From a virus (Duplodnaviria > Caudoviricetes): a DNA stretch of 61,804 bases. The notes below the pieces were generated by a model that did no database searches, was not told the DNA's origin, and saw only the letters and a list, made by a program, of their open reading frames with translations. The position numbers and the translations under genes were made by a program. Of the stretch, positions 40,264-46,604 are shown piece after piece (within the stretch, counting starts at the first letter, position 1; each line of letters begins with the position of its first letter). The stretch covers positions 1 through 61,804 of the IMG/VR virus record IMGVR_UViG_3300047392_000043. One strand, given 5' to 3'.

Positions 40264-40268
40264 AGATA

Positions 40269-40350
40269 TATTTATTGTTTTTGCACATTAACCTTCACTC
40301 TATTTACCAAACACGAAAGTGGTCCTGTTTTTGGTCCATTTTAATAAATA
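40269..40350. promoter_or_regulatory. divergent pair of T4-like late promoters (ATAAATA)
   Basis: ATAAATA on the minus strand at 40269-40275 and on the plus strand at 40344-40350. Confidence 0.6.
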
Positions 40351-40375
40351 CTACTATAGATAAAGGATTGCCAAG

Positions 40376-40657
40376 ATGGGTGAGTTTTTCAAATTAGTAG
40401 CAGAGGTAGGCTTTCCAATTGCTGCCGCTATTGCCGCTGGCTACTTTGTATTTTTAACGCTAAAGTTTATTTTAGCTGGTGTTACATCAAGTGTAGCAAG
40501 CCTTAAAGGCATCATTGAAGCCTTAGATAATCGTGTTAAAACAATGAACCACGACGTTATTCGCATTGACACTATTGTGTCTAATGCCTTAGGCTTAAAG
40601 CCAGACACATCACGTATTGCGCGAGCAGACGGTAAAAACGATGCGAGACGCGATTAA
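40376..40657 (+). CDS. YvrJ-like single-TM protein (GFPI motif)
   Basis: VGFPIAAAIAAGYFVF followed by a coiled coil. Confidence 0.65.
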   Translation: MGEFFKLVAEVGFPIAAAIAAGYFVFLTLKFILAGVTSSVASLKGIIEALDNRVKTMNHDVIRIDTIVSNALGLKPDTSRIARADGKNDARRD

Positions 40658-40857
40658 TGCTACACTTTGATTACAACTGGGATCTAAGACCAGATAGAAT
40701 TATACTTGACGAGGAATTAAACATTGACCGTTTAGGTTGGAAAGCCGGCGACTATTTTAAAGTCGTCAATGTAAATGGCCGTGCAATGTTAATTAAAGTA
40801 GATCCACTTACAGCGTTTGTTCGCGATGGCGGTGCAGAATTGGCAGGAAAAGAATAA
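40657..40857 (+). CDS. hypothetical protein, possibly AbrB-like swapped hairpin
   Basis: IILDEEL...LGWKAGDYFKV; TAATG couplings on both sides. Confidence 0.5.
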   Translation: MLHFDYNWDLRPDRIILDEELNIDRLGWKAGDYFKVVNVNGRAMLIKVDPLTAFVRDGGAELAGKE

Positions 40858-41186
40858 TGGATATTGCAACACTAATCAACAAATACGGCTTCCCGATTGT
40901 GGCCGCAGGCGGCATGGGATACTTGATATTTTACGTATGGCAATGGGCAACACAAGATATTAAGCCAGTGTTAAGCGCGGCTTCTAATACGTTAATTGCA
41001 CTAATTGATCGTGTGCGTATGCTAGACAACGATTTAATTCGCTTAAATCAAAAGGTAGATGTAGTGCTACACCTACGTGGCAAGATCATTGACGGTGAGC
41101 GTGTAGTTGAACAGCAAAAAGTAGATCGCGAAGCTGATGAAAAGTTCCGCGATGCTGTTAATATGGACAAGCCAGTTAAGAAATAA
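40857..41186 (+). CDS. YvrJ-like single-TM protein, paralog of 40376
   Basis: YGFPIVAAGGMGYLIF; LIDRVRMLDNDLIRL aligns with LDNRVKTMNHDVIRI. Confidence 0.65.
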   Translation: MDIATLINKYGFPIVAAGGMGYLIFYVWQWATQDIKPVLSAASNTLIALIDRVRMLDNDLIRLNQKVDVVLHLRGKIIDGERVVEQQKVDREADEKFRDAVNMDKPVKK

Positions 41187-41560: not shown

Positions 41561-42220
41561 TTAAACTCCTAATAAATGAATATTGTTTTCGATGTGTTCC
41601 CACACACCTGTTGGGTTGCCGTCGGCAAACACTAACTGGCAACTGATGGTTATCCTAAAGCCGTGCCCTTGTACGACTGTATGAGGTTGATTTGTACGTA
41701 ATATAGCACTGGGTACATTGGACTGTGTTTCAAATACAGGTCCCGGCAGGTCGTGCCATTGAATACGACCTGCCGCTAAATCCTCTACGCAATCGGCCAT
41801 TACATTAACTCGTGCTTGCGAATATTCTGTAGCTGGGTATTCTTTTATGGTAATCGGTAAGTCTCGACTATCCCACCAGCATATTGTGCCTGGAGATTCT
41901 GCTAATTCATAGTAGCTTAAACGTGCTTCTAATAGCGTAGGTTGGCGATTGTAATACACACCGTCAGCATGTATAGCATAAGAAGTTGAATCAGCATCGC
42001 CAGCAAATAGCGTAACAGCTCTTGTCCGCAATCCTAACAACTCTATCAGCTGATTGGTTTGAGCAATAGTCTTTGGGAACAATTCAGTTACTGTACCTAC
42101 ATTAACAAGTCCGTGACCAGTGCCTGCATATTTGGTTTGTAAAGCAGGCAACTGGTTAGCAATAAAAGATTCCTTTTCCTCGGGATCAATCGCCAATGAC
42201 AACGGATAAAAGTATGTCAT
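41561..42220 (-). CDS. putative cupin/2OG-Fe(II)-like protein
   Basis: IHADG ... PHTV ... RITIS. Confidence 0.5.
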   Translation of the reverse strand: MTYFYPLSLAIDPEEKESFIANQLPALQTKYAGTGHGLVNVGTVTELFPKTIAQTNQLIELLGLRTRAVTLFAGDADSTSYAIHADGVYYNRQPTLLEARLSYYELAESPGTICWWDSRDLPITIKEYPATEYSQARVNVMADCVEDLAAGRIQWHDLPGPVFETQSNVPSAILRTNQPHTVVQGHGFRITISCQLVFADGNPTGVWEHIENNIHLLGV

Positions 42221-44253
42221 TTACTTGTGGCACGATATGTACCATCCCAATTAGCCGGCAAGCCTTCGTTCATGCGCTCTAGCATATTTTCATAGTACTG
42301 CTTTAGTTCGTTATCTAGCTTAATCAGCTTTTCGCACTGCTTGATAGCACGAGTCCAATCGCCGCGATAGTATGCAGTTAGATATGTGTCGTGTAGCGTT
42401 GTATTAGTAGTTCCTAACGTGTAGATCTTTACGCCTACATTCTTACCTTTAACTGCAATACAATCTAATTCAACTACCGGGTATTCGTTTTGAACAAGCT
42501 CAGCAGTTCGCTGTCCGAGTACAATTCGTACGCCATAAGGCTTACTTTGTCCCTCAAGTCGGCTCGCAAGATTGACGCCATCGCCCAAGCAAGTATAGTC
42601 AAAACGCTGATCAGATCCCATGTTACCGACCACAACAACTGCACTATTAATCCCAAGACCCATACCAAAAGGCGGGATACCTTCTGCCGTAACTTCTCGA
42701 TTAAACTCATCCAAACTCTCCATCATTTCTAATGCTGTCTTAACAGCCATATGTGCGTGACGTTCTTCGTCAACCGGAGCGTTCCAGAACGCCATTTGTG
42801 CATCGCCAATATACTTGTCTAATGTGCCGTTATTGTCAATGATCTTTTTAGTCATTGCAGTCATATAACGGTTCATAATTTTAGTAAGTCCTTGCACGTC
42901 CTTACCATAGTGTTCGGAAATAGTAGTAAAGCCACGAACGTCTGTAAACATAATTGATAGTTCGCGTTCATCGCCGCCTAGCTGTAGCATCTCCGGATTC
43001 TTTTGCAACTTAGCAACAAGTGCTGGACTTAGGTACGTGCCAAACTGCTTTTTAATTTGTTGCTTTTGCTTAAATTCAACTACAAAGCAAGCAAATAAAC
43101 CATGTCCATACAATACAGTAGCCGCAAAGGCCAAATAGTAAATGTCCCACAGCTGGCTATAAGTTTGCCATGCATAGAAGCTTCCGCCAACTACTGATCC
43201 TAGTGTAACAAATAGTGCCGCACCTACTGCCCAAAACGGCAATCGAGGCATAACGAAAATTAGTAGAAACGCTATCAGCACAATTGCTAATAGTTCAATG
43301 CTTCGTGCAAATGCAGGACGTACTGGACTGTCACCGTCAAGTAATGTTTGTACTGTTTGTGCTTGAATATCATGTGCCCACGCTTCGCCATTTGGGGTGG
43401 CAATAATACTGCCCAATCCTTCAACGCCTAAACCCAGCACAACAACTTTACCTCGAAGGTCTACTTTTTTCTTAGACAATTCAGATAGTTCATAACGTGT
43501 AAAGTTCTTGTTCCAACGTAGCCAAATACGGGCATGCTCGTCTGTGGTAATAACAGGTTGTCCAGCAATACGTACCTTTTCAATGCCAGCTGAACTCATT
43601 TTAACTTGATAGCTGGTTTGCCCTGTGGCAACACGAAGTGCTTCGATAGGCAAGCTGGGATAGATTTGATCGCCTACTGCCACTACCAATGGCATACGAC
43701 GAACAACACCGTCTACTTCAGGTGCAACAACACTAGTACCTACACCAGAAGCCGCGTCGGCTAACGGCTTGTAAGGACTTAACGCACCCGGCCAAGCAAA
43801 TGCCCAATCTAAAGTGTCACCGCCAATAACAGCAACACCACGACGAACAGCGTCAGGCTTTTTATTTTGTGTAGTAGGTGCTTGAGCAATAACACTGTTA
43901 GTGTGACTTAGTGTATTAACTAAATCTTTGTCTCCGCCTAGACGATCTGCTTCGCTCATAATAACAGGAACAACAATAGCTGATGCACCCATCTCTTGAA
44001 TACGATCAATGGCTCGTGCTAGATCTTTGCGTGGCCAAGGCCACTGGCCCAAGCGTTCTATAGAAGCTTCGCCAATGTCAATGATAACAACACGATCAGA
44101 ATCAACTGGCGTGTCTGTAGCAAGTAATGTGTCAAAGCCTTTGAGCTGTATGCTTTCAACAGGCTTGGGGTTGGAGATTTTTAATGCAACAAGTACAACT
44201 GCCGTAACAGCTACCCATGCAATACTCCATGGTCCAGGAATAAAGTTTTTCAT
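42217..44253 (-). CDS. CHASE2-domain class III adenylate/guanylate cyclase
   Basis: LGQWPWPR and DGVVRR (CHASE2), TM bundle, FTDVRGFT, DKYIGDA, DYTCLGDGVNLASRLEG, VKGK; K/D residues indicate ATP specificity. Confidence 0.93.
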   Translation of the reverse strand: MKNFIPGPWSIAWVAVTAVVLVALKISNPKPVESIQLKGFDTLLATDTPVDSDRVVIIDIGEASIERLGQWPWPRKDLARAIDRIQEMGASAIVVPVIMSEADRLGGDKDLVNTLSHTNSVIAQAPTTQNKKPDAVRRGVAVIGGDTLDWAFAWPGALSPYKPLADAASGVGTSVVAPEVDGVVRRMPLVVAVGDQIYPSLPIEALRVATGQTSYQVKMSSAGIEKVRIAGQPVITTDEHARIWLRWNKNFTRYELSELSKKKVDLRGKVVVLGLGVEGLGSIIATPNGEAWAHDIQAQTVQTLLDGDSPVRPAFARSIELLAIVLIAFLLIFVMPRLPFWAVGAALFVTLGSVVGGSFYAWQTYSQLWDIYYLAFAATVLYGHGLFACFVVEFKQKQQIKKQFGTYLSPALVAKLQKNPEMLQLGGDERELSIMFTDVRGFTTISEHYGKDVQGLTKIMNRYMTAMTKKIIDNNGTLDKYIGDAQMAFWNAPVDEERHAHMAVKTALEMMESLDEFNREVTAEGIPPFGMGLGINSAVVVVGNMGSDQRFDYTCLGDGVNLASRLEGQSKPYGVRIVLGQRTAELVQNEYPVVELDCIAVKGKNVGVKIYTLGTTNTTLHDTYLTAYYRGDWTRAIKQCEKLIKLDNELKQYYENMLERMNEGLPANWDGTYRATSK

Positions 44254-44258
44254 ACTAT

Positions 44259-44287
44259 AATTTAGCATATTTTAATCTGAAAGTCAA
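44259..44287 (-). promoter_or_regulatory. sigma70-type promoter for the cyclase, probably giving a leaderless mRNA
   Basis: TTGACT-17 nt-TAAATT with extended TG; ATG lies 5 nt downstream. Confidence 0.6.
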
Positions 44288-44350
44288 GTCAAACAAAGGA
44301 CCAGGATCAATCGTAGCTATTCATTAAGAACCATATACGATATCATAGTC

Positions 44351-44447
44351 TTCGTGTTAACCATATTTTTGCGGCACATAATTTTTACGGTGCATCCATA
44401 TTTTTGCGGGTTAAAATTATTCTTATTGTGTTTTTGGTTAACACGAA
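44351..44447. repeat. 13-bp perfect inverted repeat enclosing three direct repeats
   Basis: TTCGTGTTAACCA (44351-44363) and TGGTTAACACGAA (44435-44447); CCATATTTTTGCGG occurs twice plus a variant CATAATTTTTACGG. Confidence 0.8.
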
Positions 44448-44469
44448 AAATTTGATTACAAGATGAAAG

Positions 44470-44865
44470 TTTTGCTAGATTGTGAGCTCATACGACACCC
44501 TGATAACGGGCGTCGTGAGTGGTTGTTTGCTGAGTTATATCGCCACACTGAGACAACAGGTGTTTGGGATTCCACGTTTCTGGGCTCTGTACCTTACCCT
44601 ACCTGCTACGATTTTTAAAGCAACCTCGGTGTCATGTGTTGCTATGAACGTATTGGATCTAAGTTAGCTTACGCTACACTCAACCTGTATACTAATATTC
44701 AAACGTAAAACCCAAAGGGGCATCGTTTTAAGGCATCCGTACTGAGACGGGTAGTGAATAATAGTCCGTGGCGTACTCACAGAATTGGGCATCGGCACAC
44801 ACTTAGATGCTTACCCAGCAGAATATCAACCGGCCTGCTAACCTTTTGTTACGCTTGATTATTGT
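44470..44865 (-). ncRNA. candidate large structured non-coding RNA
   Basis: No credible ORF; many nested helices whose G-U pairs work only on the minus strand; TAAGTA late-promoter-like motif at 44870-44875. Confidence 0.5.
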
Positions 44866-44911
44866 GTGTTACTTACGACTGCAAGACCTGGACCAGTCTT
44901 CAAAGATGACG

Positions 44912-45703
44912 TTATTGGGCAGGCTCGGGAGTCCACGACATGCTTTTGCCGCCTTTTTGTAATGGAGCAAAGCCTTGCCCTTTATAGAACTTTGTTAGCT
45001 TGGCTTGACTAACTTGTCCCTTGTCCCATGGGAATAATGTAAGTGCAATACCATCTTCGCGAGCCATAGCTTGTAGCTCTTTCATTGCACGACTACCTAT
45101 GCCTGCACGTAGCGGGTATGCTTGAAACCACTTGACTTCGACTGCACCACGCTTACTAAAACTTGGAACAAGTTCAAACATAGCAAACTGTTCTTCACCA
45201 AAAGGCATAACGTGATTGTTTTGCCATGTTTGTGGGTACTTTGCATAGACCTTTTCAATCCAGGCTTTAGCATCTGCGTTGCCGCCTAGCTTAATGTCAG
45301 CTTCATCAACTGGACCTAAGCTAGCATGATAGGCGCTGTTAAGATCCCACCACTCGCCTGGAAAATATTCTACTTCTAACATGTTAGCAGGCACTGCGCC
45401 TGGCACAATGATTTCGTTGTCATCGCGTTGGATGCCATTTTCGTTGTCGGGATATACACCAAATTTAGTAACTAACGCCGACCACTTAACACGAAATAAT
45501 GTAGCTTCTTCTTTACTAACATGATAGTATCCGCCTTCAGGATCGTATGCAAAATAAACACCTGGACCAGCATAGCCATCTTTACTTGGCTGCAATCCCT
45601 TTGTTAATACACTTTTTAAACCAGCCGCTTGATCAGGCAGGTAGCTAGCATGATAAACATACATGCCCGGAGAATTACTTTCAAACAGTTCGCGTATTAG
45701 CAT
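44912..45703 (-). CDS. ADP-ribosyltransferase-like domain fused to a GNAT acetyltransferase
   Basis: YHAS...GLQPS..G.AGPGVYFA...NEIIV (H-Y-E ART pattern); RAGIGSRAM...KFYKGQGF (GNAT motifs A and B); starts MLIRELFE. Confidence 0.65.
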   Translation of the reverse strand: MLIRELFESNSPGMYVYHASYLPDQAAGLKSVLTKGLQPSKDGYAGPGVYFAYDPEGGYYHVSKEEATLFRVKWSALVTKFGVYPDNENGIQRDDNEIIVPGAVPANMLEVEYFPGEWWDLNSAYHASLGPVDEADIKLGGNADAKAWIEKVYAKYPQTWQNNHVMPFGEEQFAMFELVPSFSKRGAVEVKWFQAYPLRAGIGSRAMKELQAMAREDGIALTLFPWDKGQVSQAKLTKFYKGQGFAPLQKGGKSMSWTPEPAQ

Positions 45704-45704
45704 A

Positions 45705-46604
45705 TTACCACTTACGGCAAGACCAGTAACGTGCTTTTGTACGTGGCCCTGGATTGTCACAGTTGTGACGAGCACGGAAACTGCGACGAGCCGCTGGATT
45801 GCTCTTACGAATCTTCATATCTGGATCGCCAAAGTTTACTTTTTTAACGTTGCCAGTACTAGGATCTTTTACATAGACTTTGAACTTTTTAACGTCACCT
45901 TGCATTGGTTTGCCAAGCGGAACAGAGCGGCCTTGATATTCGGCTTCGTCTAGCTGTTCATCTTCATTGTACCACAATTCGCCGTAAGCTTCAAAGAACT
46001 CGTCACCGTCATAAGTTTCTTCTAAATTTGACATTCTATCCCAAGCACGATCAGCAGTTTCTTTGTTTTTCTTAGCATACTTAGGATCAGTATCTGCTTT
46101 CTTAGACACTACTCTGTCCACGGCACGTTTCTGAACCTTGGTCAACATCTTCTGACCCTTGTCAGTATCGCCGTATTCTTCCAATGAGTCTTCTTTGACG
46201 CAGTTATTGACTTTGACTCCGCCTTTGATCTTAGTGCCATCCTTCTTATAACCATCCCAGCATTTGGGATCTAAACGTTGCTTTTCTTCCGCCACACCTT
46301 GCTCTACGCTTTCGACGAACTTTGACATAATATTTCTTGGTAGAGTCAAATCATATTTCATTAACCATTTGTTAATGTAGCGAGGATTTGCATCTGCTAA
46401 ACTACGCTTGGTACCATCTGGTGCCTGTACTATTACAGTGATAACACCATTTCTATCTTCTGCAGACAGTAACTTGCTAGCATTTTCGTTTAAGTAGCTT
46501 TCACTTACTTTTCTAGTCTGCTTAGGACCTTTACGAGTCTTCCACTTTTTATCTGTACTACAATAGTATCGGCCGTAGCCTTCTGCGATGTCTTGTATTT
46601 TCAT
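45705..46604 (-). CDS. modular putative virion protein
   Basis: MKIQDIAE start; CWDGYKK..TK.KGG..VNNCV module; C-terminal KKVNFGD...SFRARHNC...ARYWSC. Confidence 0.7.
   Translation of the reverse strand: MKIQDIAEGYGRYYCSTDKKWKTRKGPKQTRKVSESYLNENASKLLSAEDRNGVITVIVQAPDGTKRSLADANPRYINKWLMKYDLTLPRNIMSKFVESVEQGVAEEKQRLDPKCWDGYKKDGTKIKGGVKVNNCVKEDSLEEYGDTDKGQKMLTKVQKRAVDRVVSKKADTDPKYAKKNKETADRAWDRMSNLEETYDGDEFFEAYGELWYNEDEQLDEAEYQGRSVPLGKPMQGDVKKFKVYVKDPSTGNVKKVNFGDPDMKIRKSNPAARRSFRARHNCDNPGPRTKARYWSCRKW

What the first reader, a model, noticed from the sequence alone, without database searches (positions are those of the whole stretch)
44470..44905. Candidate large structured non-coding RNA in the only long intergenic gap
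Seen: about 630 nt with no credible gene in an otherwise tightly packed genome. Minus-strand helices include UAGCAG/CUGCUG (44816-44840), GCAUC/GAUGC (44789-44810), CCGU/ACGG, AAACG/CGUUU enclosing CCC/GGG, AGCAAC/GUUGCU (44619-44643), GCAGGU/ACCUGU (44601-44606 with 44556-44561) enclosing GGGU/GCCC, a long-range GUUGAGU/ACUCAGC (44678-44684 with 44529-44535) and a 12-bp terminal hairpin (44487-44519). Several G-U pairs would be A-C mismatches on the plus strand. A TAAGTA late-promoter-like box sits at 44870-44875. Inference: a roughly 400-nt multi-junction RNA, either a new class or a relative of large phage RNAs such as GOLLD or ROOL.
Basis: partly seen in the sequence, partly recalled or inferred. 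Interest (0 to 1): 0.78.

Follow-up and report, generated by a model that had tools for sequence, protein, structure and literature searches.

The report
New pseudoknotted RNA of jumbo phages
The gap holds a real, roughly 395-base non-coding RNA gene with a conserved, heavily knotted fold, found once per genome in uncultured freshwater jumbo phages and matching no catalogued RNA family, so it looks like a new class of large phage RNA whose function is still unknown.

Summary
The 643-nt gap (44269-44911) is real and non-coding. Its upstream about 395 nt (minus strand, about 44465-44858) is a conserved structured RNA. Two motif scans fetched 165 loci, and 164 contain it: 140 full-length copies, 107 unique.

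On 52 diverse sequences, an 82-pair, 17-helix model is 94.4% paired, against 33-42% when partners are slid. 54 pairs change on both sides, and 0 of 500 shuffles reach any measure.

The long-range helix GUUGAGU/ACUCAGC is not. Single-sequence folding is no better than shuffles (z = 0.08), so the evidence is comparative.

No Rfam 15 family matches. It is not GOLLD or ROOL: true GOLLD sits elsewhere in 3 of 5 genomes searched (the window record and four related genomes).

The RNA is single-copy in 5 of 5 large genomes (217-354 kb) that carry 11-47 tRNAs. In some lineages it lies 4-125 nt downstream of a permuted tmRNA. Flanking protein genes vary, so it is a stand-alone RNA gene.

The 3' domain has two co-varying repeat modules that support two exclusive pairing schemes, and twin heptamers with no partner found. 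Function is unknown.

The parts
44465..44858 (-). The RNA gene: conserved extent of the family, about 395 nt
   Evidence: nhmmer profile positions 2-395 of 397; conservation profile
44851..44854 (-). PK1 5' strand (GCGU). It pairs with the loop of hairpin P3 (ACGC, 44771-44774).
   Evidence: Mutual information. In one search (helix 1), 3 of 4 pairs are mostly paired and covary (GC/UA/AU, CG/UA/AU/GC, GC/AU/CG). The fourth pair is mostly unpaired, and the helix is 63% paired overall.
44817..44843 (-). H-type pseudoknot. S1 is GGU (44841-44843) with GCC (44832-44834).
   Evidence: S1 has at least 3 contiguous pairs in 84 of 92 sequences, with variants GGU/GCC, GGCG/CGCC, GGUG/CACC and AGCG/CGCU. 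S2 is 97.3% paired, with 4 of 5 pairs changed on both sides.
44787..44816 (-). Hairpin P2: closing GGG/CCC, with the inner stem GCAUC/GAUGC in this lineage
   Evidence: The closing helix is 96.8% paired, with 3 of 3 pairs changed on both sides. The inner stem is out of register between sub-families and was not counted.
44766..44782 (-). Hairpin P3 (CUGUG/CACGG); its loop forms PK1
   Evidence: 90.3% paired, 5 of 5 pairs changed on both sides (helix 5)
44695..44761 (-). P4 (7 bp) closes a three-way junction with hairpin P5 (44737-44750) and hairpin P6 (44702-44727). The junction has the invariant strands CACUACC and GAUGCCUU.
   Evidence: P4 is 97.8% paired with 7 of 7 pairs changed on both sides. 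The P5 outer pair is CG 34 / UA 18. P6 is 100% paired with one covarying pair.
44683..44686 (-). PK-B 3' strand (AGGU). It pairs with GCCU (44731-44734) inside the P4 junction.
   Evidence: 99% paired. One pair covaries: UA 70, CG 9, UG 4, GC 3 of 92 (helix 8).
44661..44681 (-). Optional GNRA-capped hairpin P7, present in about half of the family
   Evidence: 94.6% paired where present, 5 of 8 pairs changed on both sides (helix 10). It is absent as a block in 24-28 of the 52 sequences.
44551..44657 (-). Core double pseudoknot. P8 is 44647-44657 with 44571-44578. Hairpin P9 is 44619-44643, with loop L1 UGACACCG at 44627-44634. The junction UUAAAAAUCGUA is invariant. P10 is 44601-44606 with 44556-44561 and crosses P8. 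Hairpin P11 (44582-44599) is invariant. L1 also pairs with A' (44551-44555), stacked on P10.
   Evidence: In one search (84 distinct sequences), 93.3% of cells are paired against 35-47% when slid, the covariation score is 0.499 against at most 0.099, and 22 of 32 pairs change on both sides. One search covers the same helices (11-16).
44522..44556 (-). Repeat module A: A' (UGUC), then GUGUGGC, then ACUCAGCAAAC
   Evidence: Same-sense, position-by-position covariation with module B
44493..44515 (-). Terminal hairpin: T5 (CGACGCCC) with B' (GGGUGUCG). B' is also fully complementary to loop L1.
   Evidence: T5:B' is 98.0% paired with 4 of 8 pairs changed on both sides. L1:B' is 99.2% paired with 2 of 7 pairs changed on both sides. 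A':T5 is 95.5% paired.
44466..44502 (-). Repeat module B: B' (GGGUGUCG), then GUAUGAGC, then AUCUAGCAAAAC. This is the 3' end of the conserved RNA.
44525..44531 (-). Heptamer 1 (AGCAAAC), which varies in step with heptamer 2
   Evidence: Column 44528 against 44473: AA 48, GG 27, UU 17 of 92. No complementary partner column was found.
44470..44476 (-). Heptamer 2 (AGCAAAA)
44269..44460 (-). Not part of the RNA. This lineage-specific spacer has a 22-nt inverted repeat (44342-44363 and 44435-44456), two direct repeats 35 nt apart, and sigma-70-like hexamers just upstream of the cyclase start.
   Evidence: Not conserved across the family; repeats; promoter-like sites at 44254-44292

Best explanation
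The region encodes a stand-alone, trans-acting structured non-coding RNA of about 395 nt (minus strand, about 44465-44858). It belongs to a previously uncatalogued family carried once per genome by uncultured, mostly freshwater jumbo phages related to the Rak2/GAP32/Atu_ph07 group.

SHOWN. The family exists and is under strong purifying selection for a fold of 17 helices. The fold includes an H-type pseudoknot, two loop-to-strand pseudoknots and a core double pseudoknot, with invariant single-stranded junctions. It is not coding, not tied to any one neighbouring protein gene, and matches no Rfam family.

ALSO SHOWN. The 3' quarter consists of two same-sense repeat modules (A and B) that vary in step. 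Four segments are mutually complementary: L1 resembles T5, and A' resembles B'. Two exclusive pairing schemes are therefore both kept: L1:A' with T5:B', or L1:B' with A':T5.

INFERRED, with rough odds. The RNA works as a folded core that toggles between these two 3'-domain folds (about 40%). It presents two identical, lineage-specific heptamers to an outside partner, which could be a nucleic acid present twice or a dimeric protein (about 30%). Its role lies in the phage's own tRNA/tmRNA/GOLLD-type RNA toolkit used during infection, as a scaffold, a self-assembling particle or a ribozyme (about 50% for that general area; none of the three is favoured by data).
For: Family. An invariant 20-mer found 47 IMG/VR stretches, 109 metagenome stretches and 2 MAG contigs. 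A second, independent two-block pattern found 51 stretches, 44 of them the same loci. nhmmer finds the RNA in 164 of 165 fetched loci. There are 140 full-length copies, 107 unique, and 92 below 97% identity.

Structure. RNAalifold gave 58 pairs, 37 with compensatory changes. The full model gives 94.4% paired against 33.5-42.2% when slid, covariation 0.423 against at most 0.097, 54 of 82 pairs changed on both sides, and 0 of 500 shuffles reaching any of five measures. The core domain is covered.

Not coding. There are stops in all frames. Variability is 0.243, 0.244 and 0.240 in the three codon phases.

Stand-alone gene. Flanking ORF clusters differ between loci. The cyclase is within about 4.4 kb in 14 of 48 loci, downstream in 5 and upstream in 9. 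A relative with a 92%-identical cyclase lacks the RNA at that place (L061). The RNA is single-copy in 5 of 5 large genomes.

RNA-gene company. A permuted tmRNA lies 4-125 nt upstream on the same strand in 5 loci. ARAGORN finds a tmRNA in 14 of 144 unique loci, against 3 of 132 control loci. The carrier genomes hold 11-47 tRNAs, a permuted tmRNA in 4 of 5, and GOLLD in 3 of the 4 large carrier genomes searched.

Two-state domain. T5:B' is 98.0% paired, L1:B' 99.2%, A':T5 95.5% and L1:A' 84.9%, each with pairs changed on both sides. L299 and L213 independently change the loop A to G together with U to C in B'.

Expression, a weak hint only. Contigs from metatranscriptome libraries of two studies cover 44388-44925, 44523-44925 and 44608-44848, while none cover 44940-45600.
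Against: - Single-sequence folding energy is no better than shuffles.
- Transcription is not shown. The RNA-library evidence is assembled contigs, which cannot give strand, ends or level, and DNA can be present in such libraries.
- The sequences were collected with conserved motifs, so invariance of those blocks is partly by construction, and divergent members are missed.
- Related sequences inflate shuffle statistics. The slid-partner control is the fairer one.
- Proximity to tRNA genes is not enriched against my control, which is not independent: 32 of 144 loci against 24 of 132. In 5 large genomes the nearest listed tRNA is 23-44 kb away.
- The two-state reading rests on complementarity and a few compensatory events that may trace to few lineages. 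Alternative pairings among G/U-rich conserved strands arise easily.
- No partner for the heptamers was found in the RNA, in adjacent tmRNA genes or in the window.
- No function is demonstrated.
Confidence: 0.85

Rival explanations
1. It is a self-assembling RNA-only particle of the GOLLD/ROOL type. The seemingly exclusive pairings (loop L1 with B', T5 with A') would then form between copies, building a homo-oligomer.
For: GOLLD and ROOL are phage-encoded, multi-pseudoknotted, have no known protein partner and are often near tRNA islands. Pairings first seen as covariation in those RNAs turned out to be bridges between chains (PMC12286853, passages read). This RNA shares the phage origin, the pseudoknot density and, in some lineages, the company of tmRNA and tRNA genes. 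It also has more well-kept complementary strand pairs than one molecule can satisfy at once.
Against: There is no sequence or model similarity to GOLLD or ROOL. The RNA is about half their size. No palindromic loop that switches between palindromes was found; the GGCC in the first hairpin loop pairs within the molecule. GOLLD is already present in the same genomes, so this RNA is not a stand-in for it. Oligomerisation cannot be tested with these tools.
Confidence: 0.2
2. It is a ribozyme or the RNA subunit of an RNA-processing enzyme serving the phage's tRNA and permuted tmRNA genes, for example an unrecognised RNase P-like RNA.
For: The size, the pseudoknotted core and the invariant junction strands are typical of large ribozymes (general knowledge). 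The RNA lies directly downstream of a permuted tmRNA in 5 loci and occurs in genomes with 11-47 tRNAs.
Against: No RNase P, group I, group II or other ribozyme model matches at E up to 10, on the window or on 14 homolog loci. In most genomes the RNA is tens of kb from tRNA and tmRNA genes. No associated protein gene is conserved.
Confidence: 0.1
3. It is a cis-acting 5' leader or riboswitch of the downstream CHASE2-cyclase gene.
For: In the window and four close relatives it lies upstream of the cyclase on the same strand. A bistable 3' domain resembles a riboswitch expression platform.
Against: The cyclase is downstream in only 5 of 48 loci and upstream in 9. Other loci have unrelated genes downstream. 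About 190 nt with its own repeats and promoter-like hexamers separate the RNA from the cyclase start. A 92%-identical cyclase gene does without the RNA (L061). No terminator-like or SD-sequestering hairpin follows the RNA.
Confidence: 0.03
4. It is a selfish or mobile RNA element, such as a degenerate intron or an insertion, rather than a phage-serving gene.
For: Presence and absence differ between close relatives (L061 against L060). Genomic contexts vary. Direct repeats flank the terminal hairpin.
Against: It is single-copy in 5 of 5 genomes. It lies between genes, not within them. No intron model matches. No endonuclease, reverse transcriptase or transposase gene is linked to it. The flanking repeats vary in step across lineages, which target-site duplications would not do.
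Confidence: 0.04
5. It is a decayed or recoded protein gene.
For: One relative has a 116-aa ORF over part of the region (L063). 13 of 92 homologs have a sense stop-free stretch of at least 100 aa.
Against: All three stop codons occur in every frame of the window. The ORF is not kept in other members. There is no codon periodicity. Substitutions are compensatory in helices.
Confidence: 0.01

Closest known systems
GOLLD RNA (Rfam RF02032)
   Same: It is a large, ornate non-coding RNA of phages and prophages with unknown function, first seen in lake metagenomes. It is found in the very same jumbo-phage genomes: 193-199 bits in 3 of the 5 genomes searched (the window record and four related genomes), inside their tRNA islands.
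   Different: There is no model or profile similarity. This RNA is about 395 nt, against more than 800 nt for many GOLLD members (PMC12286853, passage). It sits at a different place, roughly 54-152 kb from GOLLD in those genomes (coordinates). Its helices and conserved strands are different.
ROOL RNA (Rfam RF03087)
   Same: It is phage- or prophage-encoded, has multiple pseudoknots, has no known protein partner and is often near tRNA islands (PMC12286853, passage).
   Different: There is no match in the window, 14 homolog loci or 5 genomes (the last had no positive control). The ROOL model is 574 positions long, against about 395 nt here. ROOL hosts are mainly rumen and gut Firmicutes phages (recalled), not freshwater jumbo phages.
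tmRNA, including the permuted two-piece form (RF04321, RF01850)
   Same: It is a pseudoknot-rich stable RNA of similar size. A permuted tmRNA lies directly upstream on the same strand in several lineages, so the two are probably co-transcribed there.
   Different: No tRNA-like domain, tag reading frame or model match lies in this RNA. The neighbouring tmRNA matches its own model end to end without this RNA. In most genomes the two are tens of kb apart.
Candidate structured RNAs mined from IMG/VR (PMC10690425)
   Same: Same data source, and the same logic of covariation in intergenic regions. Individual hairpins of this RNA may well be among the 8,495 candidates.
   Different: Those candidates are 29-151 nt long (passage read), so none can be the whole 395-nt RNA.

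Membership tests
GOLLD (RF02032) | Match to the family covariance model at or above 150 bits | tested here: not met
   There is no match in the window at gathering score or at E up to 10 and none in G000. The same search found true GOLLD at 193-199 bits elsewhere in G001, G003 and G004, which serves as a positive control.
GOLLD (RF02032) | Sequence relatedness to GOLLD loci of the same phages, including about 800 nt of flanks | tested here: not met
   nhmmer --max with the profile of this RNA, at E up to 10, found 0 hits in 3 GOLLD loci.
ROOL (RF03087) | Match to the family covariance model at or above 99.1 bits | tested here: not met
   There is no match, and 0 of 5 genomes. That search rang nowhere, so it had no positive control.
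Bacterial RNase P RNA | Match to any RNase P covariance model (P4 core and conserved regions) | tested here: not met
   No RNase P family was listed at E up to 10 for the 1-kb region or for 14 homolog loci.
tmRNA | tRNA-like domain plus tag reading frame, or a model match | tested here: not met
   ARAGORN found 0 genes in the window. Rfam tmRNA models match only the neighbouring genes in relatives, not this RNA.
Group I / group II intron | Model match, and interruption of a host gene whose exons continue | tested here: not met
   There is no intron family at E up to 10. The RNA lies between complete genes, and no reading frame continues across it.
Riboswitch / cis-regulatory leader | Constant position upstream of one gene family | tested here: not met
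   Downstream genes differ. The cyclase is downstream in 5 of 48 loci.
Large ornate phage RNAs as a functional kind (GOLLD/ROOL-like behaviour: RNA-only multimers) | Homo-oligomer formation without protein | not testable with these tools
   This needs native gels, SEC-MALS or cryo-EM of the transcript.

The most novel reading that the evidence does not exclude
This is a third, unrelated class of large 'ornate' phage RNA beside GOLLD and ROOL. It would be a bistable, multiply pseudoknotted RNA whose 3' domain swaps strands between two folds and uses two identical, lineage-specific heptamers as guide-like elements. The heptamers would recognise an outside nucleic acid, or drive self-assembly, during takeover of the host's translation system. 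That would be either a new ribozyme or RNA-guided activity, or a new RNA-only assembly.
Probability: 0.25. Interest if true: 0.9.

Novelty: categorically new. Interest (0 to 1): 0.8.

Why it matters
Large RNAs of 300 nt or more with intricate conserved folds are rare. Almost every class whose function has been solved turned out to be a ribozyme or the core of a major ribonucleoprotein. The unsolved classes (GOLLD, ROOL, OLE) have recently been shown to build unexpected RNA-only assemblies.

This finding adds a well-supported new class with over 100 distinct sequences and a testable secondary structure. It has two unusual features that invite direct experiments: a strand-swap domain kept by selection in both registers, and twin co-varying heptamers.

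It also shows that one clade of freshwater jumbo phages carries a whole set of stable RNAs: tens of tRNAs, a permuted tmRNA, GOLLD and this RNA. That makes the clade a natural system for asking what large phage RNAs do.

The case also shows that a folding-energy z-score can fail completely on a genuine structured RNA.

Tried and rejected
- **Folding energy.** The z-score showed no signal. I rejected it as a criterion, not the RNA.
- **Cultured phages by DNA search.** blastn of the gap against 50,697 phage records found no match.
- **Cultured phages by model search.** The core-domain covariance model R1 found 0 matches in 5 cultured jumbo phages with the closest DNA polymerases (Phosso, XbC2, GAP32, Atu_ph07, Kaldavass). 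The same model found the RNA in 5 of 5 uncultured genomes.
- **Recoding.** Stop-codon reassignment is rejected because all three stops occur in every frame.
- **Relative's ORF.** The 116-aa ORF in L063 is not kept elsewhere.
- **Conserved partner protein.** None was found. The commonest neighbours are syntenic genes on either side.
- **tRNA-island link.** It is not enriched against control loci and is absent in five large genomes. Only the tmRNA adjacency stands out.
- **Palindromic kissing loop.** GGCC/GCGC in the first hairpin is better explained as an intramolecular H-type pseudoknot.
There is no compensatory change.
- **Other long-range candidates.** AGGUUG/CAAUCU and AAGGUU/AAUCU are paired in 90-93% of cells but have no double changes, and their strands are already used by better-supported helices. 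The 3-bp 'helices' from a blind scan are mostly noise among G/U-rich conserved strands.
- **Heptamer partner.** I looked for a complement inside the RNA, in 560 nt upstream including adjacent tmRNA genes (10 loci), and in the window. Nothing consistent turned up.
- **TAAGTA box as a repeated promoter.** It occurs 6 times against 2.0 expected, which is unconvincing.
- **RNA-library contigs.** A part without cover proves nothing, and depth cannot rank genes.
- **Resemblances to RNase P and the sarcin-ricin loop.** I noticed these from memory and dropped them because no model supports them.
Full report
**What is in the window.** The window is a 61.8-kb fragment of an IMG/VR virus record, estimated 19% complete. 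Almost all long ORFs are on the minus strand. Its family-B DNA polymerase is closest, at 41-48% identity, to those of cultured 360-490-kb jumbo phages such as Phosso, XbC2, GAP32, CBB and Atu_ph07.

The finding lies in a 643-nt stretch (44269-44911). Upstream on the minus strand is a 287-aa ORF with no Pfam match. Downstream is a CHASE2 plus adenylate/guanylate-cyclase gene. Every frame of the stretch has 9-18 stops of all three kinds, so neither a missed gene nor a reassigned stop explains it.

**The single-sequence tests fail.** The minus strand folds to -112.4 kcal/mol against -112.8 +/- 5.1 for shuffles (z = 0.08). The plus strand does worse (z = 1.04). Rfam 15 gives nothing at gathering scores for the whole window. 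At E up to 10 for the 1-kb region it gives only a 14.8-bit chance hit. ARAGORN finds no tRNA or tmRNA.

**Relatives change the picture.**
- Loci fetched through the two flanking proteins showed the gap DNA conserved at 75-89% in four distinct relatives (six loci, two pairs from the same contig). The most distant one keeps sharp blocks separated by variable stems.
- A 20-mer invariant in that alignment occurs in 47 IMG/VR stretches, 109 metagenome stretches and only 2 short MAG contigs among 185,579 species genomes.
- A second pattern that does not use the 20-mer found 51 stretches. Of these, 44 were the same loci, 6 were new members and 1 was a chance match.
- A profile finds the RNA in 164 of 165 fetched loci. 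140 copies are full-length, 107 are unique and 92 are below 97% identity.
- Conservation covers about 44465-44858 and stops there. The remaining 190 nt of the gap is lineage-specific.

One caveat applies. Because members were fetched with conserved motifs, invariance of those motifs is partly by construction, and more distant members will have been missed.

**Structure.** RNAalifold on 37 sequences predicted 58 pairs, 37 with compensatory changes. Mutual-information and helix scans then exposed long-range pairs.

I tested a model of 82 pairs in 17 helices on 52 sequences below 88% identity:

| Measure | Model | Control |
|---|---|---|
| Cells forming a standard pair | 94.4% | 33.5-42.2% with 3' partners slid 1-3 columns |
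| Covariation score | 0.423 | at most 0.097 (slid) |
| Pairs changed on both sides | 54 of 82 | 21-29 (slid) |
| Shuffles reaching the observed value | 0 of 500 on all five measures | n/a |

The core domain alone, on 84 distinct sequences, gives 93.3% paired against 35-47% slid, and 22 of 32 pairs with double changes.

The fold, from 5' to 3', is as follows.
- A tail pairs with the loop of hairpin P3 (PK1).
- An H-type pseudoknot follows. Its first stem appears as GGU/GCC, GGCG/CGCC, GGUG/CACC or AGCG/CGCU, in 84 of 92 sequences.
- Hairpins P2 and P3 come next.
- A three-way junction is closed by a 7-bp helix in which all seven pairs covary.
- A pseudoknot links the junction strand GCCU to AGGU just outside the junction.
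- An optional GNRA-capped hairpin is present in about half of the members.
- A core double pseudoknot follows. Helices P8 and P10 cross each other. The loop of hairpin P9 (L1) stacks onto P10 by pairing with the next strand (A'). An invariant hairpin carries the loop AAGGUACAGA.

**Not coding, not a leader, not a known family.**
- Column variability is 0.243, 0.244 and 0.240 in the three phases.
- The 116-aa ORF seen in one relative is not kept.
- Flanking genes differ widely. The cyclase is within about 4.4 kb in 14 of 48 loci, downstream in 5 and upstream in 9. No other protein cluster is more constant.
- A relative whose cyclase is 92% identical has another gene abutting the cyclase and lacks the RNA there.
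- An Rfam scan at E up to 10 of 14 diverse homolog loci again gave no hit on the RNA.
- ROOL finds nothing in five genomes, though that search had no positive control.
- GOLLD finds nothing in the window. It does find strong matches (193-199 bits) in 3 of the 5 genomes searched (the window record and four related genomes), inside their tRNA islands and far from this RNA. The profile of this RNA finds nothing in those GOLLD loci.

So the RNA is neither GOLLD nor a replacement for it. The two co-exist.

Four literature searches found no description. The IMG/VR-wide catalogue of candidate structured RNAs reports motifs of 29-151 nt only (passages of PMC10690425). Passages of a 2026 preprint on intergenic clustering did not mention phages.

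**Genomic company.**
- The core model finds exactly one copy in each of five large carrier genomes (217-354 kb, 59-100% complete).
- Those genomes hold 46, 23, 47, 39 and 11 tRNA matches. Four of the five hold a permuted tmRNA.
- In five loci from at least three sub-groups of the family, a permuted tmRNA lies 4-125 nt upstream on the same strand. It matches the beta-proteobacterial or permuted tmRNA models end to end. Co-transcription is likely there.
- ARAGORN calls a tmRNA in 14 of 144 unique loci, against 3 of 132 control loci without the RNA.
- Proximity to tRNA genes is not clearly enriched: 32 of 144 loci against 24 of 132. The control loci come from the same phage group and are not independent. 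In the five large genomes the nearest listed tRNA is 23-44 kb away.
- I therefore claim only that the RNA belongs to phages with a large stable-RNA repertoire and is sometimes fused to the tmRNA transcription unit.
- The beta-type tmRNA and a hit on a contig binned with Polynucleobacter hint at betaproteobacterial hosts. This is an inference, and short binned contigs can be phage.
- Five cultured jumbo phages with the closest polymerases lack the RNA.

**Expression.** RNA-labelled runs hold 20-41% of the sampled words of an 801-nt stretch in which the RNA makes up 49%. Contigs from metatranscriptome libraries of two studies cover 44388-44925, 44523-44925 and 44608-44848, at summed depths of about 3-49. 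Some contigs cover the cyclase gene, and none cover 44940-45600. Contigs cannot show strand, ends or level, so this is only a weak hint of transcription.

**The unexplained part.** The last 95 nt consist of two same-sense modules, A (44522-44556) and B (44466-44502), about two-thirds identical. They change together from lineage to lineage.

Two things follow.

First, four strands form a closed set. Loop L1 (UGACACC) and strand T5 (CGACGCC) are alike. A' (UGUC) and B' (GGGUGUC) are alike. All four cross-pairings are kept:

| Pairing | Cells paired |
|---|---|
| T5:B' | 98.0% |
| L1:B' | 99.2% |
| A':T5 | 95.5% |
| L1:A' | 84.9% |

Each has pairs changed on both sides. Two unrelated members (L299, L213) change the same loop A to G together with U to C in B'. 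One molecule cannot form all four pairings at once. The simplest reading is a strand-swap switch between two folds. Pairing between copies is the alternative.

Second, the heptamers 44525-44531 and 44470-44476 are identical within each RNA but differ between lineages: AGCAAA, AGCGAA, AGAUGA, AACAAA, GGAUGA, AGCGAG and AGUGGA. Their strongest covariation is with each other, and no complementary column exists. No complement was found in the RNA, in adjacent tmRNA genes of 10 loci, or in the window. Selection for two identical exposed words suggests an outside partner seen twice.

**Verdict.** The GOLLD/ROOL kinship does not. The function is unknown.

My best-supported reading is a stand-alone, trans-acting, multiply pseudoknotted RNA of the phage's stable-RNA toolkit with a bistable 3' domain. 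Self-assembly and catalysis are live alternatives that only bench work can separate.

Noticed in passing
window 44342-44456 (and 44254-44292): Between the RNA and the cyclase start lies a 22-nt inverted repeat (86% complementary, 71 nt apart). It encloses two direct repeats of CCATATTTTTGCGG spaced 35 nt apart, followed by three overlapping sigma-70-like promoter matches. It looks like an operator and promoter for the cyclase gene. It is conserved only in the closest relatives.
   Followed up: partly
window 42217-44268 (minus strand): This is a phage-encoded membrane sensor cyclase (CHASE2 plus adenylate/guanylate cyclase domains, 683 aa).
   Followed up: partly
G001:C1:281439-281904, G003:C1:74405-74871, G004:C1:292345-292808 (loci L309-L311): Genuine GOLLD RNA genes (193-199 bits) sit inside the tRNA islands of related 300-354-kb jumbo phage genomes. 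In L309 a tRNA-Lys lies within the span of the GOLLD match.
   Followed up: partly
L143:2994-3385, L203:1823-2187, L238:2312-2790, L204:300-691, L200:3296-3537: Related phages encode permuted (two-piece) tmRNA genes of the beta-proteobacterial type, with ARAGORN-predicted tag peptides ending in ALAA or AFA. This hints at betaproteobacterial hosts.
   Followed up: partly
L178:3855-3928, L189:3364-3438, and L226, L258, L280, L302: ARAGORN calls tRNAs with a CUA anticodon (labelled tRNA-Pyl) near the RNA in several related loci. These are possible amber-suppressor tRNAs, which would point to TAG recoding in those phages. L203 also has a predicted tRNA with a four-base anticodon.
   Followed up: no
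window 40264-41175: This is the only other long stretch without a minus-strand ORF. It holds two conserved plus-strand ORFs (109 and 93 aa, paralogous), opposite in direction to almost every other gene. The DNA is conserved at 64-90% in most of the cyclase-linked loci.
   Followed up: partly
window 44912-45775 (minus strand): In the 287-aa ORF upstream of the RNA, residues 161-284 form a domain with no Pfam or PHROG match. The domain recurs in 58 IMG/VR loci, where it is fused to very different partners of up to about 2,000 aa.
   Followed up: no
window 44602-44615 and 44834-44847: In this lineage the strand AAAAUCGUAGCAGG (junction plus P10) resembles AAAAGGUUAGCAGG (tail plus first pseudoknot) at 11 of 14 positions. 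The likeness fades in the family consensus, so it is probably chance.
   Followed up: partly
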